From Amoebophrya sp. A120 (taxonomy: Eukaryota > Protista > Dinoflagellata): DNA of 64,000 nucleotides. The notes beneath the pieces were generated by a model. It made no database searches. It was not told the DNA's origin and was given only the letters and a program-made list of their open reading frames with translations. The stretch is taken from NCBI GenBank assembly GCA_905178155.1, contig CAJINV010000010.1, positions 521,851 through 585,850 of the forward strand, read 5' to 3'. Of this stretch, positions 1 through 48,735 are shown piece by piece (the first letter of the stretch is position 1; each line of letters starts with the position of its first letter). A program made the translations under genes and the position numbers.

Positions 1-340
1 GCATCGGCAAACGCAAACTATCCCCGCTGGGACTGCCCTCTAGGCAATGCTCCGCACTCTAGCGAAGCATCATCAAACGCAAAGAATGAAACAAATTGCC
101 CCCACTGGGACTGCCCTCGAGGCAGTGCTCCGCAGTCTAGCGAAGCATCGGCAAACGCAAACTGTCCCCGCTGGGACTGCCCTCTAGGCAATGCTCCGCA
201 CTCTAGCGGGGCATCGGCAAACGCAAACTGCCCCCGCTTGGGCTGCCCTCTAGGCAATGCTCCGCACTCTAGCGAAGCATTGGCAAACGCAAACTGTCCC
301 CGCTGGGACTGCCCTCTAGGCAATGCTCCGCACTCTAGCG
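1..340. repeat. 66-bp tandem repeat, about 5 units, cut by the window start
   Basis: Unit GCATCGGCAAACGCAAAC...CTCTAGCGAA starts at 1, 67, 145, 211 and 277 (one unit is 78 bp). Unit lengths are multiples of 3. Confidence 0.9.
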
Positions 341-722
341 GAACATGTAAACCTGCGTGTAGAAACAGGAATAGCTGCGTCTCACAGCTCAAACCGCAAT
401 CCAAACACCGCGAACGGGAGGCACCCTCCCGCCCCTCTCGCAGGGCACGGGAGTCCGGAACCTCCAGGCATTAGCTTCTAGGGATCTGCCAGCCCATGAA
501 CAAACGAGACCGGAGGATCTTCTTCCAGTCACTCAACGAAAAGAATCTACCAGGGTAGATGTGTCTTTATTTTTTTAAGCTAAAACTGCGAGAAAATTCA
601 ATAACGACATCAGATCGGAAAGCGAGGTGATACAAGCCAGCGCCTTTGCAGCGATCTGTGCTACGTTCTGCGTACAGCCGGCGAAGCCTCAAGATTGAGG
701 AGGCATGGAACGACAATAAATA

Positions 723-3500
723 TCACGCCGTACACAGCTTGCCATCAAAAGCTTCTGAGATCTCCAGGCTGAGTGACCAGTCGTTTTCCATCATTGGGTC
801 TGCCGCACGCCTGGCCGATAAGTCCTGTATAATTCTGCCGCAGACGAAAAGCTCCGGCGCATCGGGTAAAATGACTCTTCTGGTTTTCGTGCGGGAGATA
901 GCATTCGCGGTATGGATTGCAAAAGTGTCTGGGTCTGGAAGATTGCAACTTGTCATGCTAAATCCGAATCATGCAGAAATCTGTGTTGCATGAGTGCCAA
1001 AAGCTGTCCCCTTTTGACCAAGTTGAGAGGGAGTTTCTCACGCAGGAGAGGCATGATAGAGACCTCAAAGAATCTGTCATGCTGCGTCTCGCATTCCAGA
1101 CCTCATAAGTCAAGGAAAAGCTGCATCACAAATCTTGCATTCTTCCAGACCCAGACATTTTTACACTTCATACGCGGTGCGATCTGCCCAAGTACTCGGG
1201 TCCTCACCAGGAGCCGGCATATCCCACGAAAAAAGTGTTACAGTTACACATTTGGCGTCAATTCAGCAACACAAATATCTCCGCATGAGAGAGAAAACTT
1301 GCATTGCTGAAATCCTACGGGAAAACACGTAAGAAACAAGGTTTGAAAGCATTTCGTGCATGACAGAGGTTGTCTGCCATGCGTGTTTTGAAAAACAATC
1401 AATGTGTAACTGTAACACTTTTTTCTTGCGATACGGCACGATCGTTCGATGCTGGCCCGAATCCGCGTCCCGTACGACAGCGTGCCATTGCCATTTTGTA
1501 TCCCAGGCCAGCTTATCTTTTGCTTCGTTCGACAGATCGACACCAGGTCCTCCCGCTTCGACGACTAGCCGGAAATGCGGGGTGGGCTCGGCCACGATAC
1601 GACGGTCGTAGCGATAAAAGTAGGCTGGCGCTCCAGATGGTAGTAGATTGGCGCCCCGCCGAGGACGCCAATAGATGGTGTAGGATGATGCGGGATCAAG
1701 GAGTGTACGGTTTGTGGCCATTTCAGCGCTTTGCAGGTCCGGTCGCTTCAAAACCGCTTCCAGACGACGCAAAAAATACTGGAAGCTCTCATCCAAAGGG
1801 CCGACGTAGTCAGAAATGATCCTCGATGTGGCAGCAATTCTTGTCCCCGTGGATTGATGTTCCCCTCCGTTCTGATCGAACTGCTGCAGCACCGAGGCAG
1901 TCGTTCCGCCTGTAGTAGTAGCAGCGCCGGATTTTTGCTCAGAAGTCGTGGTCCGGTAGGACAGCAACTGCTGCGCGAAACCAAAAGCCATCGGGGGGAC
2001 CGGCGTTGTGCTACGGAACCGGCGACTCACGCTTCGAAGCGCGAGGAGGGGGTGCGGTGCATCTGCATCTGCATCCCCCTGCGCGGGCGAGCCGAGCATG
2101 GGCAGCTGAATGAAACGCTTCCGGGACTTTTGCATTAGATGGACGGCAAATTTTCTTGCCGCCTCTTTGACGCGATCGGTCAAAGGACCGTAGTAGTAGT
2201 CTGGACCTGGAGTAGAAGCCAACCGGCTTTCCCAGCTGCTTTCCGCGAGAAAAGCCGCCAACTCGGTACGCATCTTCTCCGCCAGCGGGCCTCGTGCCCG
2301 CCCGGGGAGCACCAGGGGCCGATAAAGTTCCGGCGTCGCCGCCCATTCCGGCGTCGTATGGATTGTAAAAATGTCTGGGTCTGGAAGGATTCGAATTTGT
2401 GATGCGAAGTCTACATCATCATACAATCTGTCATGCATGGCTAGCAAAACGCCCCATGTCTTGTTTCCGAGAGAGAGGATTTGTCATGCGGATTAGGCAT
2501 TGGGATAAGTGCTCAAAATCTGTGATGCTAGAGCTTGCATGCCGGACGATCTGGGTCAGGCAAAAACTGCATGACAGATCTCGCATTCTTCCAGACCCAG
2601 ACATATTTGCAATCCATACGTCGCCCTGTCGTGCAACAAGGAGTCGAAAACTTCGTGCAGGGGATATCCTGAGTAAAAACGTACCCACACCAGAGTTGTA
2701 ATGCAGATTTGCAAAGACAGGAACACTTGTAATGCGCATCCCCATGAGAGCCATTTCCAATCGTGTTTTGGAATTTGTGATGCTGTGAACAGGCTGAGTA
2801 GCTGGATTTGTGACGCGGCTGCACTTTCTAACCTGCACTACACTGCAGAGCGCAACTTGTCACGCGTGACGCACAAAACTCCTAGGTTTGTGTTGCAAAA
2901 TCCCCATCCTGACTCTGGTGTGGGTACGTTTTTACTCAGGATAGGGGAGTGGCGTTGTTTTCCAAGTACGGACAGACTCTATTTGTCCACGTGTCCTTGT
3001 ATGGAGAAGTAAATTAACTTAAAATGAAGACCATCACTCGGCACTGAGTTCCAATTTTGGCATCTGAAGGAACTTTTAAATGTTGAAGGGTTATGATGTC
3101 ATGCGCTGTATCTTAGCCATCTAGCATGCTGCAGGCACGTGCTCGTCCTTCATCTGCTCGTATTCTGATTTATTAGAGCGTCGCGGCTCCTGCCTGCAAA
3201 TTGTACAAATGCAAAGTGGTTTGTTTACAACATGTAGTGTTGGCGCCTCATTTGTTGTTCCACCTCCTGGGATACGTCTGCAATATCCATCGACGTAGCT
3301 GCACCAATCGACAATGCTCCCGATGGTACGCTCGAGGCGGCAACCTCCAGGTGATCCGCTGTAGTAGTGCGGGGGGAACTCTTAAATTTCTGCGAGGCCT
3401 GGTGCGTCGAAGCCTGCACCACAGCCAGGCATGTTGAGCTGGCAACGATACAGGCACGTAACGGCAACAACCGCAGGAATACACTACTTCTCGGCGACAT
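723..3500 (-). CDS. Hypothetical, possibly secreted protein with 4 introner introns
   Basis: Removing elements 911, 1220, 2357 and 2665 plus one TSD each joins the ORFs in frame (..TIVP|APGEDPSTWADRTA|NAISRT..stop 723). The hydrophobic N-terminus MSPRSSVFLRLLPLRACIVA is at 3500; its link across 3010-3225 is not resolved. Confidence 0.6.
911..1172. mobile_element. Introner family A (262 bp)
   Basis: TIR TATGGATTGCAAAAGTGTCTGGGTCTGGAAG / inverse; TSD CGCGG. Confidence 0.95.
1220..1433. mobile_element. Introner family B (214 bp)
   Basis: TIR TATC...GAAAAAAGTGTTACAGTTACACATT; TSD CGGCA. Confidence 0.95.
2357..2618. mobile_element. Introner family A (262 bp)
   Basis: Family A TIRs; TSD CGTCG. 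Confidence 0.95.
2665..2943. mobile_element. Introner family C (279 bp)
   Basis: TIR TATCCTGAGTAAAAACGTACCCACACCAGAGT; TSD GGGGA. Confidence 0.95.
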
Positions 3501-3914
3501 TATCTCCACTCCTACCTTGTGAAAACAAATTATATCTTTAGTCAAAATAAAACTGTCGTTGTCTACCTCTCTAGGCGACAAAAAATGCTGTTAAGCACAA
3601 CGAACCAGCAAAAATTGTGCTACTTAAGTGTAGAAGTGTCAGGCTTCACCTACAAGCTGCAATCTCAACCTGATGTAGAAGTCAGAACAATAGGTCGTGG
3701 GGGCAAAACGAACCAGACAGCCCACGACGGCAGATCGGTCAGACAAAAAGATCGCGTGGCCTCGTTTTTTAGCAGGCTTGTTGCGGGGACCCCTGGGCGA
3801 TCTTGAAATTCTAGAAAACCAGTTTTGTTCGTTCTCATGCGGTTTGTTGATCAAGAACTTCTTCGCAGTTTGGGAGCTCAAAGTTTCGGTTTGTTATGCA
3901 AAAAGGAGCTCAAC

Positions 3915-6552
3915 TATGAGATCGTCTGAGCGATTCAAAATCAAGCGATTCAAAATTTTTTCTTCACATATCAGGGATTTCCTGACTCTTGAAAAGAGCA
4001 GCAGCATTGCTGTGCTGCATTTGACATGTTTTTTTGCGCTCGTCGAAACGTCACCCAGAAGAGTGTCAAACGAAACAGCAAGGCCGATCTCGACTTGAGC
4101 TCGTTACTTTGGCATGTGTGAACGCAATAAAACTAAGGGCAAGGCGAGCGCCTGCATTCATGAACCCGGAGCATTTGAAGAAGCAAGGGCCAACAGAGTA
4201 GGCGATCCAACAGATGCCTCTCAGGCCCACACCCTCCACTACTTGGCCCCAAAACGTGGCCGCAACCGCTGTCGGAAATAGCGGCTTCACGTGAGCGGCG
4301 GCAGAGAGGCGACGGGCTACGCACCTAAAAAAGCAGGGCCGTCCCCAGCCGGAGCTAGTCAGAGTGGCGCCAGCGCGCGGCCCATTATTCTGCCACCGCC
4401 TAGGTGGCGTTGTCTCCTGCGCGGTTTTTCTCGCATACATACAAAGAATAAGGGGCTGAAAGCCTAGCGACGAAAAACGCGCCCGCCGTTGTGTAGTGAG
4501 GGCCCCAACCCCGAAACAATGCGGCGCCACTCTCGTCATCCGTTTTGCTTTTTCTCTTGGTTGCGGGCCACGAAAAGTCCGCCAGACCTCTTGTGGAGGA
4601 AGGTGGCGTGGCCGATTTCAGTTTGGGCTACGGGCGTTGCCACCGGGAGAGGGAAAAACACGACGCGCTGCGGCCGCATTGCCAAACATGGCACAGCGCC
4701 ACCGCATAAAAACACATAACGCCTGCGCCGCCAGGCTACCCAGGGGCCCGGTGCTAGCGGTGCGGACTTTTGGCAGCTTTCTAAATGTGCTGCTGAGCAT
4801 GCCGCCTTGGCCGGGCTTACGATGTGCTATGTCTCCACTTGAGCCCACCCCACGGCAGCTTCTGCGCCTTTCCTGTAGTTGCCTGTGATCGGTGGGGCAG
4901 CGTTTGCCGGTCCCCCCACCAGTGGAAGACCCTCGTCTCTGGCCGGCGGCCTTTCTGTTCGTGGCCCTTTTCTTCTGGCCGCCAAAGTTTATTGGGCAAC
5001 AGCGCGGGGCTCCGCCTGTATTTCTTCAGCTTTGGCGCCGTGCATCAGCCGCGTGCCGCCGTGTATCCGCCAAAAACCTGCACAAAAAGAGCTGATCGCG
5101 GCACTTTTTGAATAGAATGTAAGGCGGAAAGTGCAAATTCCACGGTTTTGCAATTTGCCGATTCAAATGAGGTCCTTTTGAATCGCCGAAACCCTTCAAA
5201 AAGGACCTCTATCGAGATCCAGCATACCGTCGTGATTCCGGCTCTCGGGGGAGGCCAAAAAGGGGGTCCCGGATTGACCCCCTTCAGGAGCCGAAATCGG
5301 CCAAGCGCGACGGTATGCTCAAGAACAATGGAAAATCACGAATCGCGACGCTATGGCGCGGCCCTCTTTCATAAATAATGACCTCCACACCTTCGGCACC
5401 ATGCCCGCCCCGCCCCTTCCGAGCGCCGCTACAAGGCTTGCAAAGCCCCGCCATCAGCTCCGGACCCGCCTGCGACCCCCGGGAAGCCTCTCTCTGCGCG
5501 ACTGGCTCCGCCGGCGCCCTTTCTCGTGCCAGACGGGGCCCACAACAACGCCCAGCCGCCCTCGCGACTCCCCCCAGAGCCGCCCCTGTCGCGAAGCTGA
5601 TACCCGCGCCCCGGCGACGTCAGTCCACCAAGTAGCCCACGACATTGGCCCGCTGGCGGACTTGCCAAGGGGCCGGGCCCCCCAGTGCCATAGCAGCCGT
5701 GGGGCGCCTGCGCCCCAAACCCTCGGCGCCTTGGCCCGCCCTTCTTTGCATCTACACGGAGGAAACAACGCACCTGTGCGCCGCGTTTGTTGCTTTTTTT
5801 GTTGGCAAAGTAGCCCGCGCGGTCTCCGTGGACCTGGTCGAGGCTGTCGCAGGTTTACAGCCTTTACGCGAGCAGGCCCAATGGCATGCCCACCACGGCG
5901 CACCAGAAGCCGCCACGCCCGGCGGTCGGCCCGCTTGGGTTTTGGAATGGGCGCTGAGTTGCCCTTCACATGGCTGACGCGCGTTTTTCCCGGTACACAA
6001 CGAACTTGGCGGCACTGTTGCGTCTTGTTTTTCCGATCATTTCATGGCTTCCCGCGCACTCGCTGACTTCATCCCCTGCTTTGAAGCCTGTATAAAATGA
6101 AGTAGCTGCCTCAAGTTGAGGATGGCCACGCTGGCTTCTTTCGTAGTCTTTTGCGCGTCGTTTGGGTGATTACAAAAAGCGGCAAAAGCCGCACCATGTT
6201 GGTGGCCTCCTTTTTGTTTAAGAGTCGGAAGCGCGCCAAATACGGAAGCGATTTCTGCTGCCGCCTTACCTTTCCAGACACACGACGAAGATTCATTTCG
6301 CAGAAGGCAGCTGCGTATCTGTATTTGGAGGGAAAAAATGACCTCCAAGAACAGCCAATGTAGATAGCTCAAGTTGACGTCGGCCCACATATTTTACTTC
6401 CATAAGCTGGCGCCGACATCTCCGCCACTTACCTGAAACTGCTCCGCGCGACGCCGAATCCGGGGACGTTTTGGGAGCAGTTGATGGGATGCGTTTTATT
6501 TGAAAAAAAAATTTTGAATCGCTTGGGTTTGAATCGCTCAGACGATCCCATA
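3915..6552. mobile_element. Large (2638 bp) TIR element with introner-type ends
   Basis: About 50-bp TIR TATGAGATCGTCTGAGCGATTCAAAATCAAGCGATTCAAAATTTTTT with its inverse at ~6500-6552; perfect TSD TCAAC (3910-3914, 6553-6557). Confidence 0.9.
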
Positions 6553-7640
6553 TCAACCCCGGAAAAGCAAATCTGTGTTGCAAAGGTGAACAGCTTCGGA
6601 ACTAAGATCTTGAAGGTCTTCATCTTCCCAGATCCGAATAATGAAAAAAGTCGAAATTGAACGAAGCGATCGAGGGAACGACGTGGCGCAGCCAATTTTA
6701 GAAATGAGTCTTGATCAACATCTTTTGATCCGCAGCTATATTTATAGCATAATCTGTTCTTCACGCGCATCAACCTCCTCAGGAAGATGGCGGCACTATG
6801 ATCCTGGGCTCAGACGTTGGTACGACACAGGCATCCTGCCTTGACATTCCATTTTCCAGATGCTCTACTTGGTCATCCTCTGAATCGTCTCTTCTCCTTG
6901 TAAACTAACACTGAAGATTTTGGCCGATGGAACACTAACAATCAACGACGAAAGGAACAAGAGAAGGGAAGTTTTATCGCACTTTCAAGTGCTTTGTCAA
7001 AACCTCAGTCAATCAATGAGGTCTTTCTATTTCCGTAAAAATTGCAGGCTTCATATAATTCTCGGGGGCATAGTGATAATTTTAAGTACAATTTTGTCTT
7101 CAACTCACAGACTCGAACTCGGCCTGTCTGACATTGAAACGAAAAGTGATAGCAAGCTGTCACGAAATCATACAAGATGCGGGGAAATACCAGCTCGGTG
7201 GTCCTCGTAAACTTTTCCAGAATTCTTGCTCTGCGTGACTATGATCAACAAACTTAGCATAAATTAGTACCTCGGAGTGAAACATTGTTCTAAAAAATAG
7301 TAGGAGAGCGCGCGGCGAGTACATTGAATGCGAGATCATTGCTGCACTGCAGCAACTTAGACTGATAGAAAGAAGTTTCTTGTTCAAACACTTCTACGCA
7401 AAGCTGCTTTTGCGTTGATTTTTCTCTACTTGGTACAGGACGAACAGGATGCATTTTATCACGAATTTTTGTTTTTCGGAGTGGTCAAACAATACAAAAT
7501 ATCAACATCAAATTCAAAGAGCCTTTACGCGTTTAATACAAGCATATGTCTCTTCCGGTGGTGGAAATGATTCATCAACTTTCTTCGTATACTAGAAAAC
7601 GTAGAGGTAGATTCTTATAAAACAGCTTTCGACCCGTTAG

Positions 7641-10600
7641 TTACTCTTCTCGCCGCATGGTTCGGGCCTGCCGAATCCTCCGCGGGGGTACCTGCTGGTG
7701 CACCAACAGCCGGTGATGCTCTTCAGCATGCCCGTCTTCCGCCGCCGGTGCGTCCTCCTCCTCGTCCTCCTCTCGCAAGACCTCTTCCTGGACGAAGTGC
7801 TTTCTACTGTTTGCATTTGTAGTCCTACTTGCAGGTCTGTTCTTTCTCCCATAAGAGTTCTTCTCTCTGTCCGGGCTGGAACTTGTTGTTTTTCCGCGGT
7901 TCATCTCTGGGTGTGCTTCTACTTGTTCGCGGTGAAGCAGTGTCGACGGCGGAGAAATTTTCTTGATATTGTTAGTACTGTGTAACGACAACTTTTTTGT
8001 TGACGCACCATGTTGCTCATCCTGCTCCAATATTTTTCTCGTCGGCGGCACTTCTGGACTACTGTCTCTAGTACTGCTTCTGCTTGTAGTAGTTTTCCCA
8101 ACTTTATTCTGCGACTTGTGCTGGTACTCTGCCAGTGCCATTTGGTTCGCAGAGAGGTGTTGTGCGTGCATCAAATGGCGCTCGTCCTGCTTGTTCTGCT
8201 CGTAGTTATCCGCCAATAAATGCTGAACATCTTCTACCGCTTTCACCACCCTCTGCCCCGGCACGTGCTGCACTTCTGGATGAAAAGCTGCAAGCACTTC
8301 CGCAATTCGCTCCGCATCTTCGTCCTCGAACTCCTCTTCCTGATTGTTGGGCCCCTCATCTGCAGGTCCTCGTTCTAGTGCTTCCGTGTCGACGCCCTCG
8401 TTGTCGTTTTCATCTGCGCCTGGACTTGGTTCATCATCCATCTCATCGGCTCCTCCAGCCTCGGGTTGTTCTTGTTCTTCCTCCGAGGGAGGTGGCGTTT
8501 CCTCAAGAACTCGAGCAGACTCCACATCATCATCGTCTCCTGCACTCGCAGCTGCACCTCCTACTGCGTCTCCTTTTGCGGTCTCAACAGCTTCATCTTC
8601 TGGAGTCGCAGGTGCTGGAGCACCACGACCATGATCTTCATCACTACCTGTGGACGACGAGAGCGCAGGCGGCGGAGAAGACGGCACAAGCTCTTCCTCC
8701 GACGTCGCACCAGCAGAAGTTCCTGCAACTACTTCCGAGTCGTCCGACTGTTCGCCAATTATTGCAGTCTCCTCGTCCTCGACCCCTTCATTGCTCGACG
8801 GGGACACGACAGACTCAGCGCCTGCTTCCTCTTCCGCAGGAGCAGATCCGTTTATTTTCTCAGCTGTTTCTTCGAGATTTTCGTCATGTTGATCTGGTGC
8901 TTGGTCCGCATCTACTTGTGTGGAAGGGGTACTTCTAGACGGGCCTTCATTTTCGGGAATATTCTGCTCCGGAGCTACTTCCACCTCCTGCTGTTCTTGA
9001 TCGTCCGTCCCAGGTGTTGTATTTTCACTTGTTTGATGCCCAGCAGAATTGCCGCTGTCGGCCTGTGCGCGGCCATCCTCCAGCTCTTCTTGTTCATCCT
9101 GCTGCTCGGTCGGCAGTTCTTCAGAGTGCGGTGACTCGCTTTCTTGTTTTTCCTCTTCCGTCGGCGGACCATATGGCGTTCTCAAACGTTACATTCTCAG
9201 CTGTTACATGAATTTGTCATGCAAAAGTGCCTTGAGCCGGCAGATGATCGAGCTGCTTCGCATGACAAATTTCGGAAAGGCTAGACAGCATCTAAATCTG
9301 CGCCAAACTTGTAATGCAAAAGGTACAATCTTCCTCCTTTCACTTTTGCCAGTCTTGCATTACAAATTCATGTAACAGTTGAGAATGTAACATTTGAGAA
9401 CTCCATAGACCATTTTTCTCTTGTTGTGCAGCTGTGTTCAACATGTTCTCCTGCTCCTCGTCAGGCACAACAACATTTTTATCTTCCTCCGCAGGAGCCG
9501 TCTCGACCACTTGCTCATCCGTTGTCGCCTCTTCATCTTCTTGTGCACTGCAAATATGTCTGGGTCTGGAAGGTTGGAACTTGCAATGCTAGTCTTACAT
9601 TCCTGGTAGATCTGTATTGCATGACCAACAGAAGTCGCAGCCTCTCTTGTCATACAAAGACGCAGTTTCTCATGCAGGGTGCGTATAATGTGGAAGGGTT
9701 CTGCAAACTTGTCGTGCTCCCCTGCCTGAGGGAGCGTTTTCCTCATGCACATTTTAGCATGACAAATTTGAAATTTCGAGACCCATACTACACATTTGCA
9801 TTTCATATTTCTTGTGCCTCATTGATGTTGTTCACCTGGTCCACCGGGTCGACGTTCATATCCGTTTCAGTTTGTCTATTTGACACGACTGAAGGCACTT
9901 GATGGTCCTCTGCAGCTCCGCTTTCCGAAATATTAACGCTCTGCTCGTCCGCCTCTTGTTCTACTACTTCCATCGGTGTAGCAGCAATACCATCAGTAAA
10001 AACATCTTCACCCCCGCCGGTTGTAATGTCCTCTCCTTTATCAAATGCAAAACTGTCTGGGTCTGGAAGATTCTGAGACTTGTCATGCACGTTTTGCATG
10101 AGGCATGATGTCTGTGATGCATACCGTAGCATCACAGATTTTTCGAGGGGTTCTTGATGCCTATTTCGCATGACAAATGCCCTATCCGCGTGGCAATAGC
10201 AAAAAGTACATTCCCTTTGCTCCTCATGCAATGCAAATTTTTTTGGAATCCCAATGCAGCGTCACAGGTTGCATTCTTCCAGACCCAGACATTTTTGCAT
10301 TTGATATCCTTGCCGCTCTTGCTCTTCTTCATCTTCGTCCGAAGACATGATTTGATTTTCAACATCTGAGTCGTTTGTTTTTACTACTTCGCCGACTTGT
10401 TCAGGATCGATTTCTGCTGCTGGTTGTGCAGGATCGTCTTCTTCACTGGTGTGATGCTCTGCTTCTGAGTCCTCTTCTTCCTCATTGCTGTCCTCGGCAG
10501 ATGAAGCAAGAGTGGTCGCAGGTGTGTCGTCTGTAGTAGTTGCGCCACCCTCCGCCTCCGCGTCCGCGTCACCCTCCGCATCCGCGTGTTCATCTGGTAC

Positions 10601-13600
10601 TTGTACCTCTGGCCCCGGTTGCTCCACCTCCCCGTCTGCATCCACGTCAACTTCCTCTCCTTCATCATTCTCCGCTGCTGCATCCTGCTGCTGCTTCTGC
10701 TGCTGCTGTAGTAGAGCCGCGGGTTGCTGACCCACCGCCGTGGTCGAAGTGGTAGTAGTTGTCGTGTTGGTGTCATTTTTGTCTGTCAAATTAAACCTCG
10801 CTGTGAGGGTCGTCGTGACCTCTCCCGGCTCTCCGGTGAACGCGTTCCCGGCTGGCATGGGCTCTGTCGGCGAGAGTCCGGATCTAGCGAGCGCAAGGCC
10901 GACCGACGGCTGGTCCGCACGGCTGAAAACTGCGTAGTACCTGTTTTTTTAACATCCTGTAGTTTGTTGGTCCTCTCGTGTGTAAGAATGTCCAGAAAAC
11001 AGGTCTGTAGCGCGCATGGCACTGTCCTGCGAAAGAGTGAGCGCACGGTGCGCACGAGAGATAGATGTGTTTGAAGAAATGTTGAAGTGACTGTATCAGG
11101 AGCAGAGCAAAGTACTAAAGCTTCTAAATCTAGTAGAAAGTTAATAGTTAGTACTTCCGCATGAAGGCCATTCCCGCGACGATCGCGCCACCCGGAATGC
11201 TTTCATTCGGAATGTATCCTGGGCAAAAACATCCCCACCCCAGAGTCAAGATGGGGACCTCGCAACACAAGGCGAGAAGTTTTGGGAGTCACGCATGACA
11301 ATTTCCTCTCTGTATTGTAGTGCATGTGCAGTTTAGCAAGCGCAGCAGTGGAGCATAAAGCACTCTACTCATCCTGTTTTACAGCATTACAAAGTTCAAA
11401 ACGCGATTGGAAATGCCTCTCATGGGGGTGCCTCAGCTCTTTATATGATTGACTGCAAGTCCAAATCTGCCTGACAACTATGGGGTGGGGACGTTTTTCA
11501 CTCAGGATAGAATGTCCAAGGGCGTCATTGCCAAACTGCACATCATTTCCCCCTGGTCCACCTCTGCGAGACTGCTCGCGCCGCCTTCTGCACCGCGAAG
11601 CCTGCTCTTTGACAACTTCAATTTTCGTCGGGCCGCGGCGGACGCGGACATTGTTGTTGGCAAAGTCGCAATCATGTAGTCGTCCCTCGTCAACCGCATC
11701 GGCCGCACCTATCAAATGCAAAAGTATCGTACGGTACTCGTAGAAATGCATCACAAATTTTCTCAGCATGAAAAATTAAATTCGTAGTGCGGATTTACCT
11801 TAAGGAAGAGATTTGTAATGCATGATTGCAATTACTACGAGTACGATACTTTTGCACAGGATAGCACCTCCCCGGCAGCATTTCTCAAGTGAAACGTCAG
11901 ATCCGCGTAGATGTTTTGTTGGTACGCCACGTCGCGGCACCGCCGGTCTGGCAACAGCCGTTTTAACTCCCGGTAAACATGTTTTGGAATTGTGAACAGC
12001 CTGTATCCACTGCAAATGTGTCAGTCTGTGCATGGAACAGTGATTTGAAACTTGTGACGCTACTATAGGATTCTTATTCTAAAAAACGCTGCATTTTTGC
12101 CTGAGAGAGCAGTAAGAGGAATCAAGTTTTTGCTACGCGGACGAGAGGGCAACATTTTTCATGCGGGATAAGTTGATCAAGAAACACACAGAAAATCTAA
12201 TGATGCTAGGGCATACTTACATCATGAGAGAATCATCCTCATGCATCATGCACAACGTGCATGACAAACATTGCACTCTTCCAGACCCAGATGACATCAT
12301 ACATGCAGTTGATAGACTGGTGCCGGAATCTATGATGAGGTTTTTCACTGTTACGGGGATATCGTGATTCCGCAGCTTTTTCTCATCCTCCGGGGACAGA
12401 CCACTACCACCGGGAGAATTATATTTGTATGCATTGCAAAGGCATCGCATCGTACTAGTATGAATTGCATTACAAATTTGCTCAGCATGAGATGAACTGG
12501 AATTTGTCATGCTGTTCTACCTTAAGGACAAGACTCGTCATTCATAATTGCAAGTAGTACGTGTACGAGTACGATACTTTTGCACAGGATAACTTGCCCA
12601 CTGGGTCGATATTATTTGCCGTTTTAGAATCTTCCTGCTCGCCAGTGTTGTTGTTGGTTTCGTTGGACGATGTTGTACTGTTCTTTGTCGAATTGTTGGA
12701 CGATGGGTCGTCACCGAGTGTAGAAATTGTCCGGCTGCTCCCAGTACTGGTGCTCACGGAGTGCTGTTGGTGACCACGCTGGCCGTGATGGTGCACCGCC
12801 GCTTTTGATGTAGACAACCCCGATTTGGAGGTTCTCAGTTGTTCTGTCGTTGTAGTTGTTCCTGCGAGATGTGGCTCTTGTTCAGAGGCTATTGTTGTTG
12901 TACTACTTCTCGCTCCGTGAATATAATTCTCCTGTTCTTCTTGCAAAGAAGACGTGCTGTGTCGGTGCACAGCGATACCCGGCAAGGAATTGGAATTCAT
13001 TTTCGCATGATGATCCGTAGTCTTCGCATTCGCACGCCGGCTGTGTCGAACAAGTTGCACCTGCTGCTGAGGTAGTTCAGGCTTGGCTGCGGCTGGTGTC
13101 GGCCAGTTGTGTTCTTTATTCGAAACCTGTGAAGAATCATCCGCATCGAAAGATTACTTTTACAATTGCCAGCTGACATACGCTACTTCTCGTTCTCCCT
13201 GAGGTGAAACCTTTACTCCACATGAATTGCATTCTTGCAAAAAAACCTTGCACCTGGGCGCAGAGCAGGAGGACAGATCCTAAGTACTTCAAAACAAGAT
13301 CACATCTCATAGAACAAAGATAGATACTTACCGACGGTCTCGTCCCCACGACCGCCCGCTGCCTCTCCTGCCGCTTTTTCTCCCCGATCCTGACTCGGTA
13401 CCGGTGCATCTCTATCCAAGGAAAAAAGTGTTACAGATACACATTTGTAATGAACTCAGCATCACAAATTTGCCTCGCATGACGGAGAAAACTTGTAATG
13501 CAGAGATCATAAGGCAAAACACACACGAAACGAGACCCGCAAGCATTTTGCGCATGACAGAGGTCGTCTGCCTTGGGTGTTTTGCAACACAATGTGTAAG

Positions 13601-16600
13601 TGTAACACTTTTTTCTTTGCATAACCTGGTCTCTCGCCTCCCGCAAACTGACCATAGACATGAGCTCTTTACTCGACTTCCGGATTCGGTTCAGGTGCTT
13701 CGCATGAAGATCATCCATCTCGGCGGTGCTACTGCTCGTCGTCCCTGAAAAATGCCGTGAAGATGCACCGGACGTCGATGAACTTGTCTCTCCGATTTGC
13801 AGAAAAGACGTACTAGAAGTAGTAGTGCCTACTTGGTCTTGTTCAAAACTTTCGCCTTCGTCTTCCTGGTCCTGCGAAGAAGATGATTTTTTGTCCTTTC
13901 CTTCGCCTAGAATCTCTTCCATCAGCACTTTCCTAGCAACCGACAGCATCCGCGGCTTGACCACCCCAATCCGAGTGCTCCGTGTCGACGCTTTATTTCT
14001 TGTACTTGGCTTGACCGGACTCCTCTCAGCATAGTACTCTTCCGCCAACTGATCCTCCAGATCGGGCGTGAAGAGATACCGCACAACGTCTTCCGCAATC
14101 TTCGAGAGCTCCTTATCCAGCACGTTGCTTGTTGTACTAGCAGGCGCTGTCTTCTGTTTTTCCCTCCTCGTTGAGGTTCTTCTACCACCTGCTCCCGTCG
14201 TGGTTTTTCCGCTGTGCAGGGACGAAGGAGAAGCGGAGGAAACAGTAGTACCAGATTTATTCGCAGAGGAGCGACCCTATCAAGTGTAAAAATGTCTGGG
14301 TCTGGAAGAGTGCGCGACTTGTCATGCAGCTTTTCCATGACCCATGAGGTCTGGAATGCAGGACCTAGCATGACAGATTCTGTGCGATCTTTCTCATGCC
14401 TGTCCTGCATGAGAAACTGCCTCCCGACTTGGTCAAAACTGGACGACTTTTGGTAATCATGCAACACAGATTTTTGCACGCTGCAGATTTAGCATGACAA
14501 GTTGCATTCTTCCAGACCCAGACATTTTTACATTTAATAGACCCGACGTCCCGAAAATTGCATCCACAATGTCCTTCAGAGGGTCAGCGAGAGTTGTATC
14601 TCCTGCACCTGGTTTCATTTTCACCTGATTGCCGTCGTCCTGCACCTCCTGTCGCCCTGCTGTACTACTACTACCCGTGGTTGCCGTTGGAACAACTGCG
14701 GCGGTTGAGTTGCTTTCCGCGCTGGACAGCACTCTCTGACTTTGTTCCCTGTCCTGACCCGCAGCCAGCCCCGTGCTGTCTCCGAAAATGTCCGCGAAGG
14801 GGTTCTCGTCGTTTTTTTCAGCGGTGGTCGTTTATCAAATGCAAAAGTGTCTGGGTCTGGAAGAATGCAAGTTTGTGATGCTTGTCTGGCATGACTCGAG
14901 AATCTGTGTTGCATAGGCACGAAAAGGCCCTCTTACCTGTCATGCGAAAATGCAGTTTTCCATGCGGAATACGTATAGACATGGCAGCCAAGAAATTTGT
15001 CATGCATAGCTGCGCACTGCGGTGCGTCTATCATTCACTTTTAGCATTACATACAAGCTTCCAGACCCCGACATTTTTGCAGTGCATATGGTCGTTGTGG
15101 GAGCCACGTCCTCACTCGAGGCGGCGTCAGACCCGAAAATCCCGTCACCACCGCCAGCACCGCCTAGCGCACCAGCTCCGTCCCCGCCAAACAGTTTCGC
15201 GATGATATCGAGAATCAGAGGTATGGAAAGAAAAAAGTTTGTCACAGTCACTAACTTGCAGCTTTTGCATTACAGATTTTCTTAGCGTCACAAATTTTCC
15301 TTGTATTGCAGAAACACTAGGGAAACCTCCTATGGAGTTTAGCTGCGATGCATTTTTACGCATGACAGAAAGTTTTGTATTGCAAAAATGCGCATGAGCG
15401 ATCGTGACAAACTTTTTTTGTTTGATAAGAGGGGACAAAGTGGTAGTAGAAATTGTCGTGGTGTACATCGGAATCTGTTTCTGCCTTGTATGGATTGCAA
15501 ATATGTCTGGGTCTGGAAGATTGTAAACTTGTAATGCTGTCTCTGTATTCTAAAAAAATTTGTATTGCATGACCAGCAAGAGGACTCCAGTTTGTGTTAC
15601 GCGGACGAGAGGGCATTTCTCATGCGGTAGAGGCATCACAAAGTCCTCCAAAAATCTGTGATGCTAGGGCATGCATCACAGACATCGCGGGTCATTCAAA
15701 ATATGCATGACAAACTTGGCAATCTTCCAGAAGCAGACATATTTGCACTTGATACCTTGGCGCGCTGTACAACACCGATCTTTCCCCGTCCATTTCGACC
15801 AGGGAATTCGCTAGCGTCAAGTCCACCAACTCCACTGCCCAGTAGCGTTGGTGGACCACCGGAAACATCTCGATTTTGTGCCCCGGCTCGACGGCATCCG
15901 CAAAAATTCCGCCGATAGTGAAGACAGAGTTCTGCTCGGGCAACTTCGACAGGTAGAAGGAAAATTCCGGTTTGGTGAGCACGTTTGACTTCAACACGTT
16001 GTCAAACCAGGGCCGGGTGACCCAGGCGAGTTTCGTGTTTGGGTTGAAATTTGTTGTAGACGAGGAAGATTCATCCGATGGTGCGCCGCTGCCTGTGGAG
16101 TTACTGCTAGAATTCGAGGTGCTGTTCGTAGTAGAGGTGGAGTTCGTAGTCGTGCTGTTGGGATCGTCTTTGTAGCTGCTGTGCTGGGTCTTCAAGGCTA
16201 GTTGTTTTCTCTGATTCGCTCCTTGCATGCCAGCGTTGCGGTCTGTTGGGAAGTCGGTAGTTGATTTTCGGTTATAATTTTGTGAATACCATCAGTTGGT
16301 AAGTAGTTTGTTCTGTTTCTGATTGACGTAAATTGCACGAGAGGATGGATCAGGTTGGTGAACTGGAGCTAGAACTAGAAAACCGCACATGACAAAGATG
16401 AAACACACGACTTACTGCAGATGCAGATGCAGTCAGGAATTGAATTTTTACAAAGCATCAAAATACTCAAAAACGTTTGCCACGTCCCAGAAGACGACTC
16501 GCCCTTGAACCAGTCCCGGCCCTTGTGAATCAAAACGTTTGAATCCCCATTCAAATCCGCTTCGACCTGCTCCGTCGCTACTAAATCCGGGAATTATCAA

Positions 16601-19223: not shown

Positions 19224-20094
19224 TTTTTCAAATTTTTTAATTTTGTTTTTTACATTTCCATCCAAGGCTACAATGAATCCTTCAAATAAGCAGCTTAAGG
19301 AAAGAATCTTGTACAACTCAGTTGTAACTTTCTCTCTACCAAGACGAGAAGCCAAACTGCAGCGCGACTCAAGCACGAGTGCACAAACACAAGCGACTCT
19401 AACCTGCAAAGCGATTCATCGTCTCGATAGCAGCTCAATCCGCTGCCATCGCTGTCTCTCTCGAAATGAAAGGTCCTACATCAAATCGTGCTACGTAAAC
19501 CCACTCGGACCCAATACTAACGACCGCTCTATCTAAAGCAAGATTGACAAACGGGTCCTGGAACAAACAAAATGTTAACTCGAAAGAACTTAGTACGGTC
19601 GTGGGCCGCGTAATGTGATCCATGTTTCTGTATCGGTGCTTCAACTTCACATGCACCAGCAACAGCAAGTGCTTTGCAATATAATGTCGTCCAGCATGTT
19701 GCGTTTAAAACAACTGATGTCCATCTTTCCCGCACAAGAATGAGACATGTAGATAAAAAACCTATTCCCAGAACCAAAAACGCTACTCGCTCTATACTTA
19801 CACTAGACTCAGTTGGTTCGCCCCGTGCTGGTGGTTCAAAGCATTCTATAGTACGACGAACCTCTTCAAACCAGCACTACCTCCCCCGCTAAGCGCTAAA
19901 AAAGGCCAGGGTGTACAACTAGGGGGTCAATGTGCCGGCACCAGCTCAGGAAACAACCAAGAACTGTACGAGATTGTTGTTCATCTGCGGACATACATCC
20001 TCGAAGCGCGGCTCAATGGGAATAAAATTAGTCAGTCTAATGGTTGTTTTATCTACTTTTACTTCTCTATCGGGACGATACTGAAAAGATGAAC

Positions 20095-22778
20095 TTAACG
20101 CACGTAATCCATTGCCCGGATGGTTCTCCCACGGTTCACGGTGGTATTCGTGATTCCCTGCTTCATGAACCGCTTCTGATCTTCCCTCTTTATGGCCATG
20201 ATCTGTTTCCCCTGCGTCTTCAACTGCGAAATACCAATCACGCAGTTGTTCTGCCCGTTCTGCAGCGCTAACCTCGCCCCAAAACCACCTCCAATGGCCT
20301 TCACCTTTTCCTTCTCTTGCCCGCGCCGGCTGTGGTACAGCGCCAACCCCCGCTGCCGGTAAATGTACCGCAGCCGCCTGTGCGCCGCCTCGGAGCCGTC
20401 CGGGAGTTGTAAATTTCCCGTTTCCGGCACGATTTTCGCGATTCTCAGGTTCAAAGCCTTGCAAACCTTCTGGAACTCATGCTCGTCGTCGCAAACGTGG
20501 ACTTCGTTTTCCTCATCCGATTCCAGCTCGTATTCTGTGCAAAATTTCTCGTAGATTTTATCCTGAGTAAAGACGTCCCCACACCAGAGCCAAGATGGGA
20601 AATCTGCTAGACAAATCAACCAGCTTTCGCTGTTTCGCATGACAGGTTTGCCCTCCTGGTATAATCTTGTTTCGCTAGTTCAGCAGCGTCACAGATCTAG
20701 CATATCATGCTGATTCTAGCATCACAAACTCCAAAAAACAGCTAGAAAATATTTCTCATGGGGCTCCGCATGAGAAACTTTTTTGGCATGCAGATTTGCA
20801 TGACAACTCTGGGGTGGGGACGTTTTTACTCAGCATAGATTTCTTGGATGAAAGCACTTGGATTCGGCCGGCTCCCGAAAAACTTCCGGGCGAAGCACTG
20901 CAGGCTGACGCCAGGAATTATAGCGTCGGAATTGTTGTCCTCCTTGTGGTCACCATCTGCTCTACTATTTCGCTTCAGTGATGATGATGCTCCTTGTTCT
21001 ACTGTTCTTTCCGCGTCCGTTTCCTCGACCAGTTGCTGGTAATCCAGCTCCGAAAACTCTATTGTGTCGTCGATAAACTCTGCGAAGTCAACGGCTTCGT
21101 CGAAAGCGAGCAAGTGATCTTCGTCCTCGTCAAAAAATTCAAACATCTCTTGCAGCTTCTCCGCGTCGCCTGTTTGTAGCGTAAAGGAATGCTAGACTAG
21201 CATGACAAATCTGGTTTGTTTCTTAGGTAATTTAGCATTACAAATTCAATTTTTCATACTGAGCTAATTTGTGATGCAATTTATACTAGTACGATGCTTT
21301 TGCAGTGCATATGCACCGTGCCGCAACGAATAAAAACTCTTGATGTTGAACGTCAAACTCAAAGCGTTACCTACTACACGACGTCCATTTATCAAATTGT
21401 CTGTGCCTCTCTTGCAAAAAAAAAACCCAACAGCTGCATATGTAAAATTTATACTCAGATTCTTTTCGGCTTCCTTCCTCGCCGCCTTTTTCTCTGCGTT
21501 TTTTTCCACCTTCTCAATGGCGTTCTCCAGCATCTGGTCGGTCAGCGCTTCCCTCACCGTTTCCAGCGTTTTTTTCTTATTCTCCTTCAGGTTGAGCTCG
21601 TTCCAACTTGTGCGGAAATCGTAGAAGAGCTCCAGCTATCAAATGCAAATATGTCTGTGTCTGGAAACTTGTGATGCAAGAAAGGGAAGAGTGAGCGCAC
21701 TGTAATGCGCTGCCCAGCATGACAAGTTTTTCCGTGTAGTTCAGCTTCAGATTTGTTGCGTAATCCGCATGACAAACTGCGTTTTTGCATGCCAGATAGG
21801 AAGAGCTCGTAGCGGGCACGCAATACAGAGTTCAGAGTCATGCTAGGCTAGCATGACAAATCTGGCAATCTTCCAGACCCAGACATACTTGCATTTGATA
21901 CCAGTTGCGCCTTTAACTCCGCAGTGATGGCTTCCGAGTAGTTGCCCGCGCGGGTGTACCCCTCGACGCCAATCCGCGTGTGGTTCTTGTCGAGCATGTG
22001 TCTCCGACAGGACAGTTCGTCCTCGAAGGATTTGTCGCAGTAGAGACATTGGTGCCCTTCGGAGATCTTCTTGTGCAGAAAGGAGAGTAACCCGGGCTTG
22101 TCGGTGCAGTAGGTTTCGTCGGGGATGAAGAAGGAAAACTTTTTACCCATGTAATCCAGGTTGTCTTCGAGAGATTTGAAAGTTCGGTGGTCGAAAAGGG
22201 ACCGGTTGGGCAGGGGAACAACCTGGTGTTGCGTTTTTGGAAGTTGATTTTTGATTTTTGACATAGACATCCTAAGTCGTGAACTAAGTACACGACGCAC
22301 ACTTCGTTGTACTATCTCGTCGACATCAAGTTGTAGCCCGACTTTGTCCTACGTAGTAGTTCACCAGCAAGCAACTTTTTTAGCAAGAGCTGCGTCAAAT
22401 CATCGCATTTACAATACAAGCATTTTTAGAAGTTGTACTGCGTTACATATTACTTACCTCTGCGTTGGCGTTCACCGCCACTGCCTTGGATTGATTGGTC
22501 GCTACGGAATTTCTCCCTGAAGTAGTCTGTTCTGCCAGATTCCGCTTTTTGCTTTCCTTCAAGTGGTCCGTTTTCTTCCCGGTTTGCTCCATCTGAATTT
22601 CCTTAAACCGCTGCAACTTCCGCTCCCACAGCTCGGCGGGAATCGGGGCCGCGTTTTCCAGCTTCCGCTTCACGTTGTACATGTGCCTTTCCGACCGGTA
22701 GTGCGCCCGCTGCTCAGACACCGGCACGTGCTCGTTGCACGAGGTGCACACCGTCATCGGAATGGTGGCGGTCGCCAT
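20095..22778 (-). CDS. REI1: Pre-60S ribosome maturation factor REI1/ZNF622-like (C2H2 zinc fingers)
   Basis: CTSCNEH...QRAHYRSERHMYNVKRKL; NLDYMGKKFSFFIPD...CLYCDKSF...RRHMLDKNH; LELFYDF; LQLPDGSEAAHRRLRYIYRQ. Confidence 0.88.
20559..20837. mobile_element. Introner family C (279 bp)
   Basis: TSD GATTT. Confidence 0.95.
21637..21900. mobile_element. Introner family A
   Basis: TSD CCAGC/CCAGT. Confidence 0.93.
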
Positions 22779-46600: not shown

Positions 46601-48735
46601 CGCTCGGGTTGTTTCGATGCTGCTCCCCCTTTTCTACCAGCAGCGTGCTGGCATATGCAGAGTTCATATTCTTGTCGTTTTTCACGGTGCTGTCCTTGAG
46701 AAGAACGTATGCATATTGCAAATATGACGTCTGGGTCTACGGGAAAGAAGTTGAGCGGGTATCAATAAATCTTGAAAACAACTGAAAAAAAGTGTACCCT
46801 GCACAGCCACGCATGACGAGTTTTGCTGGAATGGCTGTGCGGTACCAGTTTGTTTAAGTGCAAATGGAAATAAAACGCGGGCCACCAAAAGCTACAATAT
46901 TCCAAGATTGCAAATATCTGCCACTTGCCACAAAAGAAAGACCCACACGCCATTAGAGTTCTTTCCAATACTATCCAACGAAAAAACTGTTTCACTGTGG
47001 TAATTTTGCAAGATCTGCAACACAAGTTTGTTACACATGACAAAGAAAACTTGGCATGCGTGCTTCCTAAGGGAAAACACAGCTAGAAATCCAATGTGTT
47101 GCATGTGTAGCAAGACAAACACATTTGCGTTCCGTTCTATGCATCACAAGTTTACAGAGAAACAGTTTTTTCTCGCGATAAATGCGTAGTATATCGTCCT
47201 TCGCCACATTCGCGGTCTCCCGCAGGTCCTCGCTATGAGAGTGCACAACCTCCCCGCCTCCCCCTCATTTGTATTGCATGGACAGCAATGCAAACACCCG
47301 CACATGTGGGGTCCGTACATGACAAGTTCGCGCGCGTAATGTAGTACTGTTGGGGCTCCTTCCGGAAAAATCTGTCATGCAAATAGTACCACAGGGCAGC
47401 GCTTGGATTTGGTATTTTGCATGACAAATGAGGGAGAGGGGGAGTTCTGCATTGTCATACTCGCACTGCGCCGCGTACTGGCGGGCCTTCAGCCTTTGGA
47501 ATATGGCGTTCTCAACTGTTATATTCTCAACTGTTACATGAATTTGTGATGCAAGAATGGCAAAAGTGATAGGAGAGATCTTGCGCGTCTTGCATGACAG
47601 ATTTGGCGCCGATTATCGGCCTGCTTGGCCCTCTGAGAATTTGTCATGCGAAGCAGCTTGATGGTGTAGATTCTGAAGGCAATTCTGCATGACAAATTCA
47701 TGTAACAGTTGAGAATGTAACGTCTGAGAACCCCATATGGAAGTCCTGCTCTTTCGAAAACGACCCGTCCCGCTATGCAATACAAATTTCCATTCCCGCA
47801 CATGTACAAAATGCATGAAAAATTTCGCTAATTTACTTAGAGTGTCAATAAAAATGTCATGCTGGTTAAGATTGAACTCTTGCAGGGAAGTTGTGTCATG
47901 CAGAAACAGCATTTTCGCTCGTCGTGTGGGAGAAATTTCTTGTGGATACCCGCCCCGTCAAGCACATGAAGCCCCGCTGTCCGGTCTGGCTCGGGTCGCC
48001 CAGATTCTTCAGCCGTTGCTCCGCGTCGACCTTATTGGCTTTACTCACCAGGTCTTCAAATTTGCCGGATCGCTATGGAATGGAAATTATCTGTCTGGGT
48101 CCTCTGGAAGAATGCAAGCTTATTTTTTTCATGCTTGTCATTTCACCTGGCTGCTAAATCTGTAATGCAGGAGCAGGAGTAGAAAAGCCTCGCGCCTGTC
48201 ATGAAAAAATGCAGTTTGTCATGCGGAAAGCGAAACACATATAGAAGGAGCTCAAAATAAACTTGTCATGCGCGGCTGTGTATTGCAGTTTCTTCCCACA
48301 ATTCAGAAGCTAGCATCACAAGTTTCCAGACATCCAGACACACTTGCATTTGGTAGCCGCAGGTGGTCTGCGATTTCCAACTCCTTCTCCGTGATCTCGA
48401 GCTGCAAATCTGTCTGGATGTCTGGAAGAGTGGAACCTGTATTGCTCGGCCTGCATATCTGTAAAGTCTGTGTTGCGTGACTGAGAACAGAAGCGCGGCT
48501 TCTTTCGTCAAGCAATATTATGCAGTTTCTAATGCGCGCTACGCATGAGAAGGAGTAGCTTGTCATGCTTGGCTGCGCTCGAGAAAATGCTCGGCAATGA
48601 CAATTCAGCGCCACAAGTTTCCAGACCCAGACATATTTGCAATGCATACGTGATCTCGGGCTGCAATTCATGCGGCTGCAGGCGATCGTCACGCAAGCAG
48701 CCCGTGAAGTCGGCCGATGAAGTCTGTTGGGGCAT
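43639..48735 (-). CDS. Phosducin-like / thioredoxin-domain protein (TXNDC9/PhLP3-like) with an N-terminal extension
   Basis: DELALLREKRKEQLRREQQMTQHW|KSQGHGVLRDIASEREFF..ERSVVLLY..IRDILASLAK|KHLETQVFQLEEQKAH|FML..LPILFL. The 5' part from 48735 is joined by inference. Confidence 0.7.
43718..44058. mobile_element. Introner family G (341 bp)
   Basis: TSD GCTCG. Confidence 0.88.
44719..44868. mobile_element. Introner family E (150 bp)
   Basis: TSD AAGTG. Confidence 0.93.
44924..45175. mobile_element. Introner family A (252 bp)
   Basis: Left end TCTC; TSD CTTCG. Confidence 0.93.
45215..45425. mobile_element. Introner family B (211 bp)
   Basis: TSD GCGTT/GCGGT. Confidence 0.92.
45711..46510. 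mobile_element. Introner family C enlarged to 800 bp by a nested insert
   Basis: TSD TCCAG; 13-bp duplication TGACTATGGGGTG flanks 45993-46473. Confidence 0.88.
46972..47180. mobile_element. Introner, B2 variant (209 bp)
   Basis: TIR TATC...GAAAAAACTGTTTC; TSD AATAC/AATGC. Confidence 0.88.
47234..47459. mobile_element. Introner family I (226 bp)
   Basis: TIR TATGAGAGTGCACAACCTCCCC; TSD CTCGC. Confidence 0.9.
47502..47737. mobile_element. Introner family D (236 bp)
   Basis: TSD TGGAA; inverted relative to 9172-9407. Confidence 0.95.
47774..47948. mobile_element. Introner family J (175 bp)
   Basis: TIR TATGCAATACAAATTTCCCA; TSD CCCGC. Confidence 0.85.
48074..48355. mobile_element. Introner family A, diverged
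   Basis: TSD ATCGC/GCCGC. Confidence 0.85.
48395..48648. mobile_element. Introner family A
   Basis: Left end TCTC; TSD CGTGA. Confidence 0.88.

What the first reader, a model, noticed from the sequence alone, without database searches (positions are those of the whole stretch)
9215..9364. One internal motif, (AAAYY)TGT(C/G/A)ATGC, repeated in both orientations in all small-element families
Seen: families with unrelated TIRs and interiors each carry about 4-7 copies of TGTSATGC/GCATSACA or close variants. Family D 9172 has TGTCATGC 9215, GCATGACA 9260, TGTAATGC 9310 and GCATTACA 9357, alternating and symmetric at ~45-50 bp spacing. Family A 911 has copies at 951, 982, 1036, 1051, 1075 and 1123. 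By eye the motif is rare in exons and intergenic DNA. Inference: a single trans-acting factor recognises all families. It could be a transposase binding subterminal sites, or an RNA-binding splicing factor, since one strand often reads UGCAUG, the Rbfox-type motif. The motifs could also act as pairing modules that fold the intron. This would be the common code of the system.
Basis: partly seen in the sequence, partly recalled or inferred. Interest (0 to 1): 0.88.

Follow-up and report, generated by a model that had tools for sequence, protein, structure and literature searches.

The report
Helically phased DNA code in introners
Small jumping-DNA elements that act as unusual introns in this genome all carry copies of the same short motif, spaced roughly in step with the DNA helix, which is likely the landing pad of one DNA-binding protein (probably the still-unidentified transposase machinery) and gives a direct bait for finding it.

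Summary
TGTVATGC occurs 185 times in the window against 8 expected. It sits in TAT..ATA elements with 5-bp target duplications that are removed precisely from RNA. Their anatomy matches the published Amoebophrya A120 introners. Across 412 elements from the window and 163 fetched loci, 407 carry two or more sites. The core mutates at 0.43x (tips) and 0.19x (internal branches) the spacer rate, like the TIR. The Rbfox and pairing ideas fail: no transcript-strand bias (550 vs 510), only 24% of sites contain TGCATG, no covariation between partner sites (584 vs 583), and some families have all sites one way. New here: spacing is helically phased (period 10.4-10.8; direct pairs in phase, inverted pairs half a turn off; a 30-33 bp direct pair in 13 of 14 TIR classes). 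Best reading: a site array for one double-stranded-DNA-binding protein, most likely the transposition machinery (0.55). A DNA-bound host factor that marks the element for removal is not excluded. No transposase was found.

The parts
9172..9407 (.). Family D element (236 bp, TAT..ATA), non-canonical intron of a minus-strand gene
   Evidence: removal with one TSD inferred from RNA contig length arithmetic
9167..9171 (+). 5-bp target duplication GACCA, left copy (right copy 9408-9412)
9172..9229 (+). left inverted-repeat arm (58 nt, 90% complementary to 9350-9407), includes the first motif
9350..9407 (-). right inverted-repeat arm
9215..9222 (+). motif site 1 TGTCATGC (position 44 of the element)
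9260..9267 (-). motif site 2
9310..9317 (+). motif site 3 TGTAATGC
9357..9364 (-). motif site 4, mirror of site 1
7644..10948 (-). 840-codon open frame restored by removing three elements (9172-9407, 9542-9807, 10039-10306), each with one TSD
   Evidence: RNA contig record 10
911..1172 (.). Family A element, TSD CGCGG, matrix sites at element positions 41+, 72+, 126+, 165+, 181-, 213-
2665..2943 (.). polar element: six sites all on +, so the minus-strand transcript carries only the GCAUBACA form
20559..20837 (.). nearly polar element (6 of 7 matrix sites on -), removed with one TSD in an RNA contig (284 nt skipped)
21637..21900 (.). family A-type element; RNA contig joint skips 269 nt (264+5)
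21170..21454 (-). canonical GT-AG intron, removed in the same contig, holding three motif sites of an element remnant
47502..47737 (.). second family D copy, opposite orientation to 9172
3915..6552 (.). 2.6-kb TAT..ATA element with TSD TCAAC, no motif site, its own GCGATTCAAA repeat in the ends, lying between genes

Best explanation
The motif (RYYTGTVWTGC) is a conserved, strand-indifferent, helically spaced repeat inside non-coding TAT..ATA transposons that are removed from RNA as introns, and it is likely the binding site of one double-stranded-DNA-binding protein shared by all families, most likely the transposase or its DNA-bending cofactor. Shown: the elements have TIRs, random 5-bp TSDs and no coding capacity; element plus one TSD is removed from RNA; the motif core is conserved like the TIR; sites tile each element at about 2 per 100 bp, with a recurring 30-33 bp direct pair; direct pairs lie near whole helical turns and convergent pairs near half turns. 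Inferred: protomers bound on one face of the helix bend or wrap a 110-320 bp element so that its two ends can synapse; masters that lost sites left fewer copies; one universal internal site lets families with unrelated TIR interiors use the same enzyme. Inferred more weakly: the enzyme is integrase-related (IS3EU/GingerRoot-like ends) or hAT5-like.
For: Near-universal: 407 of 412 elements have 2 or more sites. Core substitution rate is 0.43x spacer on terminal and 0.19x on internal branches, against 0.51x and 0.20x for TIR positions 16+; the core is relatively more constrained on internal branches (p=3e-8), as expected if selection acts on propagation (18 families, 301 elements). No strand effect: 550 vs 510 sites on the transcript; loss rates 3.0% vs 3.3%; no G.U asymmetry; coding-frame elements with only one orientation on the transcript number 12 vs 13. 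Phasing: direct pairs best period 10.4, R=0.53, n=51; convergent pairs best period 10.4, R=0.55, n=31, about half a turn offset. Adjacent gaps only: n=54, best period 10.6-10.9, R=0.55, 0 of 5,000 jitter nulls; without the 30-33 module n=44, R=0.49, p=0.0006; stable to leaving out any one of 11 classes. Constraint is the same in coding-frame and apparently non-coding copies (0.43 vs 0.44). A different TAT..ATA element has its own end repeat. Arrays of subterminal transposase sites are established for other TIR transposons (PMC11707139 passages).
Against: No transposase, integrase or RRM domain in 257 ORFs scanned; Farhat et al. report no transposase in A120. Sites tile the whole element rather than only the ends. 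Phasing relative to the element end is weak (p=0.10 and 0.013), and divergent pairs peak at 15.2, not 10.5. The period estimate (10.4-10.8) does not separate B-DNA from A-form RNA (helical values recalled). The core stays constrained in the closest pairs (0.45-0.49) and in copies with damaged TSD or ends (increment ratio 0.49, 95% 0.18-1.41), which leans towards selection after insertion, i.e. a host function. The motif-free 2.6-kb element appears to have other copies, so TAT..ATA ends can move without this motif. TIR classes may share deep ancestry, so spacing units are not fully independent.
Confidence: 0.55

Rival explanations
1. A host protein (possibly a domesticated transposase) binds the phased array on DNA and marks the element for co-transcriptional removal, standing in for splice-site recognition in an organism reported to lack U1.
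For: Only 17 of 294 elements have a GT/GC-AG register and the TSD has no consensus, yet 289 of 312 coding-frame elements would break the frame if kept. Every feature tested is strand-symmetric, the TIR stem included (G.U 259 vs A.C 235, p=0.30). Constraint persists in close pairs and damaged copies. The one motif-free long element lies between genes. U1 was not detected in A25/A120 (PMC7789003).
Against: Constraint is stronger on internal than terminal branches and equal in coding and non-coding copies. Three coding-frame elements have only one site. No precedent is known to me.
Confidence: 0.17
2. A host chromatin or transcription protein binds the array and favours spread of the elements indirectly (open chromatin, tolerance of insertion), with no part in catalysis or splicing.
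For: One motif across unrelated TIR classes fits a host factor; phasing fits any DNA binder.
Against: The motif is rare outside elements, which is unexpected for a general host factor; its constraint tracks the TIR.
Confidence: 0.1
3. The sites are pairing modules that fold the intron RNA into a rod and bring its ends together.
For: The focal element folds as one rod with sites paired symmetrically; 290 of 736 sites pair with another site at P>0.5; interior z averages -2.5 and stays negative with sites fixed. TIR pairs co-change on the same branch (75 vs 44 expected, 52 compensatory).
Against: Pairing needs complementarity, not one fixed sequence in all families. No covariation at the variable base (584 vs 583; symmetric pairs 88 vs 98.6). 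Motif co-changes 11 vs 8.5; paired spacer only 11% slower than unpaired. 27 of 166 sampled elements have a single orientation.
Confidence: 0.08
4. A single-stranded RNA-binding splicing factor of Rbfox type reads UGCAUG in the intron.
For: One strand of the commonest variant contains GCATG (54% of strict sites); the elements are introns.
Against: No sense bias (TGCATG 290 vs 298); only 24% contain TGCATG; polar families sit both ways in genes. The variable position, which forms the last G of GCAUG, is unconstrained (0.87x and 1.06x), while the TGT half outside the Rbfox word is conserved. Helical phasing is unexplained.
Confidence: 0.05
5. The motif is a relic of common descent and internal duplication with no present function.
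For: Families may descend from one ancestor; a 31-33 bp module could have been duplicated.
Against: The core rate is below the spacer rate on terminal branches in all 18 families tested, while spacers are unalignable between groups; phasing persists without the module.
Confidence: 0.05

Closest known systems
Amoebophrya sp. A120 introner elements (Farhat et al. 2021, PMC7789003; Gozashti et al. 2025, PMC12130899)
   Same: IRs begin TAT with an A-run about 7 nt later, 3-5 nt direct repeats, non-canonical splice sites, about 240 nt; family lengths near 149, 209, 252-260, 278, 305 and 320 match the A120 rows seen.
   Different: The texts seen describe only the ends; no shared internal motif, spacing grammar or conservation test is given. 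The first paper argues against transposase mobilisation; the second files most families as TIR DNA, superfamily unknown.
MITEs and TIR transposons with subterminal transposase-site arrays (piggyBat, PMC11707139; Ac, Tol2 and Tag1 as cited in its references)
   Same: Short repeated sites inside the TIR, in both orientations, conserved like the TIR.
   Different: Here one motif spans at least 11 unrelated TIR classes, tiles the whole element, and the elements are precisely removed introns.
IS3EU/GingerRoot (PMC10045372, PMC6839031, PMC12730594)
   Same: TA..TA ends (TAYGG..CCRTA in fungal IS3EU), TIRs over 30 bp, no target consensus; an A120 family has an integrase-like ORF between TIRs (PMC12130899).
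   Different: TSD there is usually 6 bp, here 5 bp (331 of 412); no transposase seen here.
hAT5 (PMC12730594 passage)
   Same: 5-bp TSD; hAT elements use subterminal repeats (recalled).
   Different: No hAT transposase found; not testable.
Euglenid nonconventional introns (PMC11282704 passage)
   Same: TIR-bounded, TSD-flanked introns of likely MITE origin with unknown removal mechanism.
   Different: Their CAG/CTG signature at +4-6 is absent here; no internal motif is described for them in the passage seen.

Membership tests
Amoebophrya A120-type introner | IR starting TAT with a run of As about 7 nt later | tested here: met
   the A-run is weak in classes D, E and H
Amoebophrya A120-type introner | 3-5 nt direct repeats at the boundaries | tested here: met
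   331 of 412 have a perfect 5-bp TSD, 1 has 8 bp; the caller required a TSD-like match, with 2 false calls in 515 kb of shuffled DNA
Amoebophrya A120-type introner | removed from RNA at non-canonical sites | tested here: met
   joints of 284 and 269 nt, plus 355 nt between aligned pieces matching three excisions; 17 of 294 have a GT/GC-AG register
Amoebophrya A120-type introner | host is Amoebophrya A120 or kin | tested here: inconclusive
   no genome held; the protein search gave no taxon names; inferred from element anatomy, family lengths and co-oriented genes
MITE | short, TIR, TSD, non-coding, multi-copy | tested here: met
   families of up to 90 among 412 elements
MITE | cognate autonomous element with the same ends | tested here: inconclusive
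   none among 257 ORFs from about 0.74 Mb; two long TAT..ATA elements have no ORF with a Pfam hit
IS3EU/GingerRoot | TA..TA termini | tested here: met
IS3EU/GingerRoot | 6-bp TSD | tested here: not met
   0 of 412 have a 6-bp TSD; 331 have 5 bp
IS3EU/GingerRoot | integrase-like DDE transposase | not testable with these tools
hAT5 | 5-bp TSD | tested here: met
hAT5 | hAT transposase | not testable with these tools
   none found in the DNA held
Rbfox-type RNA site | UGCAUG on the transcript strand with invariant Gs (recalled) | tested here: not met
Pairing module | compensatory change between partner sites | tested here: not met

The most novel reading that the evidence does not exclude
The phased motif array is a splice mark written in DNA: a protein bound to it loops the element and directs removal of element plus one target duplication during transcription. 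That would explain precise removal in either orientation, at random target sequences, with no splice consensus and no U1.
Probability: 0.15. Interest if true: 0.93.

Novelty: new variant of a known kind. Interest (0 to 1): 0.62.

Why it matters
Most introns in Amoebophrya A25/A120 have no splice consensus, U1 was not found, and the source paper found no transposase in A120, so both how these introners spread and how they are removed are open questions. A single conserved, helically phased internal site across unrelated families is a cis-signal that the texts I saw do not describe. It gives a concrete bait (a 30-33 bp direct pair) for purifying the protein, a way to find autonomous partners, a classifier for annotating these introns, and clean mutational tests that separate transposition from splicing.

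Tried and rejected
No whole genome is held, and the record behind L019 is not searchable, so there was no genome-wide transposase search. Viral contigs gave 0 hits for the TIR pattern. Rfam gave 0 hits in window 1-22000. Pfam on 257 of 259 non-redundant ORFs of 170 aa or more gave no transposase, integrase or RRM. No RNA holder on record was listed; raw RNA runs X9 and X10 barely mapped (22 and 5 reads) and were not used. No orthologous insertion pairs were found among the loci (0 pairs), so post-insertion selection could not be measured directly. A core/spacer ratio of 0.84 in the least-diverged quartile came from ranking on the same sites; with held-out sites it is 0.45-0.49. The G.U wobble test gave no RNA-level signal for TIR or motif. 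Phasing to the element end was weak. A reverse-transcription artefact as the sole cause of the joints is rejected because 289 of 312 elements would break their frames. Excision from DNA is not supported: DNA contigs of X1 run unbroken through the junctions, though contigs drop rare forms and X1 may be the source sample. RNA evidence for elements outside 2001-22000, including motif-poor and opposite-polarity ones, is lacking. The GCATGACA hit in PMC6482013 is a RACE primer. Three look-ups of earlier findings returned nothing.

Full report
Observation. The four family D sites are exactly where stated, and three of the six family A sites are exact while three are variants. TGTVATGC occurs 185 times against 7.96 expected. 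A caller that used only TAT/ATA ends, arm identity and target duplication found 63 candidate elements holding 160 of the 185 hits. With a learned matrix (RYYTGTVWTGCD) there are 280 hits in 15.1 kb of 59 curated elements and 52 in the remaining 48.9 kb; many of the latter lie in missed or decayed elements.

What the elements are. They begin TAT, end ATA, have arms of about 25-58 bp and are flanked by 5-bp duplications with no sequence preference. Removing element plus one duplication restores long minus-strand frames: 840 codons across three elements including 9172, 641 across five, 748 across three. In run X3 (RNA is a guess by the tool, but the same contig also drops a GT-AG intron and depth is zero between genes) one contig skips 284 nt at 20559-20837 and 269 nt at 21637-21900. 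Another aligns to 7035-9166 and 10307-10934 with 355 nt between, exactly the length of the two exons left after three such excisions. Only 17 of 294 elements offer a GT/GC-AG register. This is the anatomy reported for Amoebophrya A120 introners (PMC7789003: abstract, passages, sections 12 and 16, supplement part 1 and searched passages; figures not seen). Family lengths match the A120 rows of PMC12130899 (passages; 32 of 58 A120 rows of supplement file 8). The host was not identified directly.

Larger sample. A TIR pattern scan fetched 163 loci (677 kb with overlaps; the scan covered 11 of 64 parts). With the window they gave 412 distinct elements (47 from the window), with 2 false calls in 515 kb of shuffled DNA, in 100 families and 37 groups without alignable interiors. 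Family A is over-represented because it was the bait. Strict hits number 1,224 against 30 in shuffles; 33 of 37 groups carry the motif; 407 of 412 elements have at least two matrix sites, about 2 per 100 bp.

Conservation. Parsimony on trees of the 18 families with five or more members (301 elements) gave core rates of 0.43x spacer on terminal and 0.19x on internal branches; TIR positions 16+ gave 0.51x and 0.20x. The variable fourth base evolves like spacer (0.87x and 1.06x) and the G at +6 is the most fixed. The motif is therefore under selection.

RNA factor. Gene strand was assigned by a codon model for 359 of 412 elements (53 dropped; agreement within records 270 of 282). Sites fall 550 vs 510 on the transcript strand, TGCATG 290 vs 298, and only 24% of strict sites contain TGCATG. 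Strongly polar families lie both ways in genes (family 3: 11 vs 13; family 4: 9 vs 6; family 8: 3 vs 5; family 11: 2 vs 4). Loss rates do not differ by strand. Coding-frame elements with only one orientation on the transcript number 12 and 13. An Rbfox-type reading is not supported.

Pairing. The focal element folds as a rod and 290 of 736 sites pair with another site; interiors are more self-complementary than shuffles. But the variable base matches between inverted partners 584 times against 583.3 expected, motif pairs co-change 11 times against 8.5, and paired spacer is only 11% slower than unpaired. TIR pairs do co-change (75 vs 44), yet show no G.U bias on the transcript strand (259 vs 235), so this could be arm homogenisation rather than RNA selection.

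Spacing grammar. Using distinct (TIR class, spacing) units from the 32 families with two or more members (classes assigned by eye; three singleton groups left unclassed), direct pairs peak at period 10.4 (n=51, R=0.53) and convergent pairs at 10.4 with a half-turn offset (n=31, R=0.55); 13 of 14 classes have a direct pair at 30-33 bp. Restricted to adjacent gaps and 11 merged classes, the best period is 10.6-10.9 (n=54, R=0.55, 0 of 5,000 nulls), survives removal of the 30-33 module (p=0.0006) and survives leaving out any class. Against: divergent pairs peak at 15.2, phasing to the element end is weak, the period does not separate B-DNA from A-RNA (values recalled), and classes may share deep ancestry. 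Phase plus strand indifference plus fixed sequence is what a protein reading double-stranded DNA from one face would leave.

Transposition or host function. For transposition: stronger constraint on internal branches, equal constraint in coding and apparently non-coding copies (the non-coding class is noisy, n=37), and a TSD mismatch rate of about 0.027 per site in the closest pairs, which could account for much of the core's tip changes if the TSD is free. For a host function: the ratio stays 0.45-0.49 in the closest pairs, and the extra divergence of copies with damaged TSD or ends is 0.013 in core against 0.026 in spacer (ratio 0.49, 95% 0.18-1.41). The motif-free 2.6-kb TAT..ATA element lies between genes, seems to have other copies, and has its own GCGATTCAAA end repeat; it fits either a second transposase or the idea that only motif-bearing elements are tolerated in exons. 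I put transposition machinery at 0.55 and a DNA-bound removal factor at 0.17.

Known systems. The ends fit IS3EU/GingerRoot but the 6-bp TSD criterion fails (PMC10045372, PMC6839031, PMC12730594 passages); the 5-bp TSD fits hAT5. Neither can be assigned without a transposase, and none was found in 257 ORFs. Subterminal site arrays are established elsewhere (PMC11707139 passages). Also seen as passages: PMC11453091, PMC11282704, PMC6482013, PMC12005148.

Novelty. The elements are known. The internal motif and its phasing were not found in five full-text searches or in the supplement text searched. Figures, supplement file 14 of PMC12130899, bioRxiv supplements and Roy et al. 2023 (seen only in reference lists) were not seen and could mention it. 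Verdict: a real and apparently undescribed cis-code in a known introner system; new variant of a known kind; interest 0.62.

Noticed in passing
window 3915-6552: 2.6-kb GC-rich TAT..ATA element with TSD TCAAC, no clear ORF, no motif, its own GCGATTCAAA repeats (also near 5160-5186), seemingly inserted into an older motif-bearing element (sites at 3892 and 6574).
   Followed up: partly
L023 505-1608: 1.1-kb TAT..ATA element with the motif module only in its left 270 bp and many ACCTCT/AGAGGT repeats in the rest.
   Followed up: no
window 14833-15088: Family A-type element with an 8-bp duplication (TGGTCGTT) instead of 5 bp; the only such case in 412.
   Followed up: no
window 45711-46510: 800-bp element with family B ends, TSD TCCAG and about 500 bp of unrelated sequence inside; the frame is open after excision.
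   Followed up: no
window 21170-21454: Canonical GT-AG intron that contains a 150-bp-family element remnant with three perfect motif sites.
   Followed up: partly
window 44115-44390 and 58098-58299: Old TAT..ATA-type elements with no matrix site above threshold; whether they are spliced is untested.
   Followed up: partly
window 1-345: Tandem array of about 60-bp units at the 3' part of a minus-strand gene, open in two frames.
   Followed up: no
window 1-64000: Nearly all long frames are on the minus strand (co-oriented block); 33900-37500 is ambiguous in strand. Pfam hits include AMP-binding (28461-32976) and aspartyl protease (15695-17544).
   Followed up: partly
L020 2628-6083: C-5 cytosine DNA methylase domain split over two adjacent ORFs, next to an 1,100-aa ORF without Pfam hit.
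   Followed up: no
TIR positions 4-9, all families: These positions vary as fast as spacer and often mismatch between arms, while TAT and positions 10 onward are conserved.
   Followed up: partly
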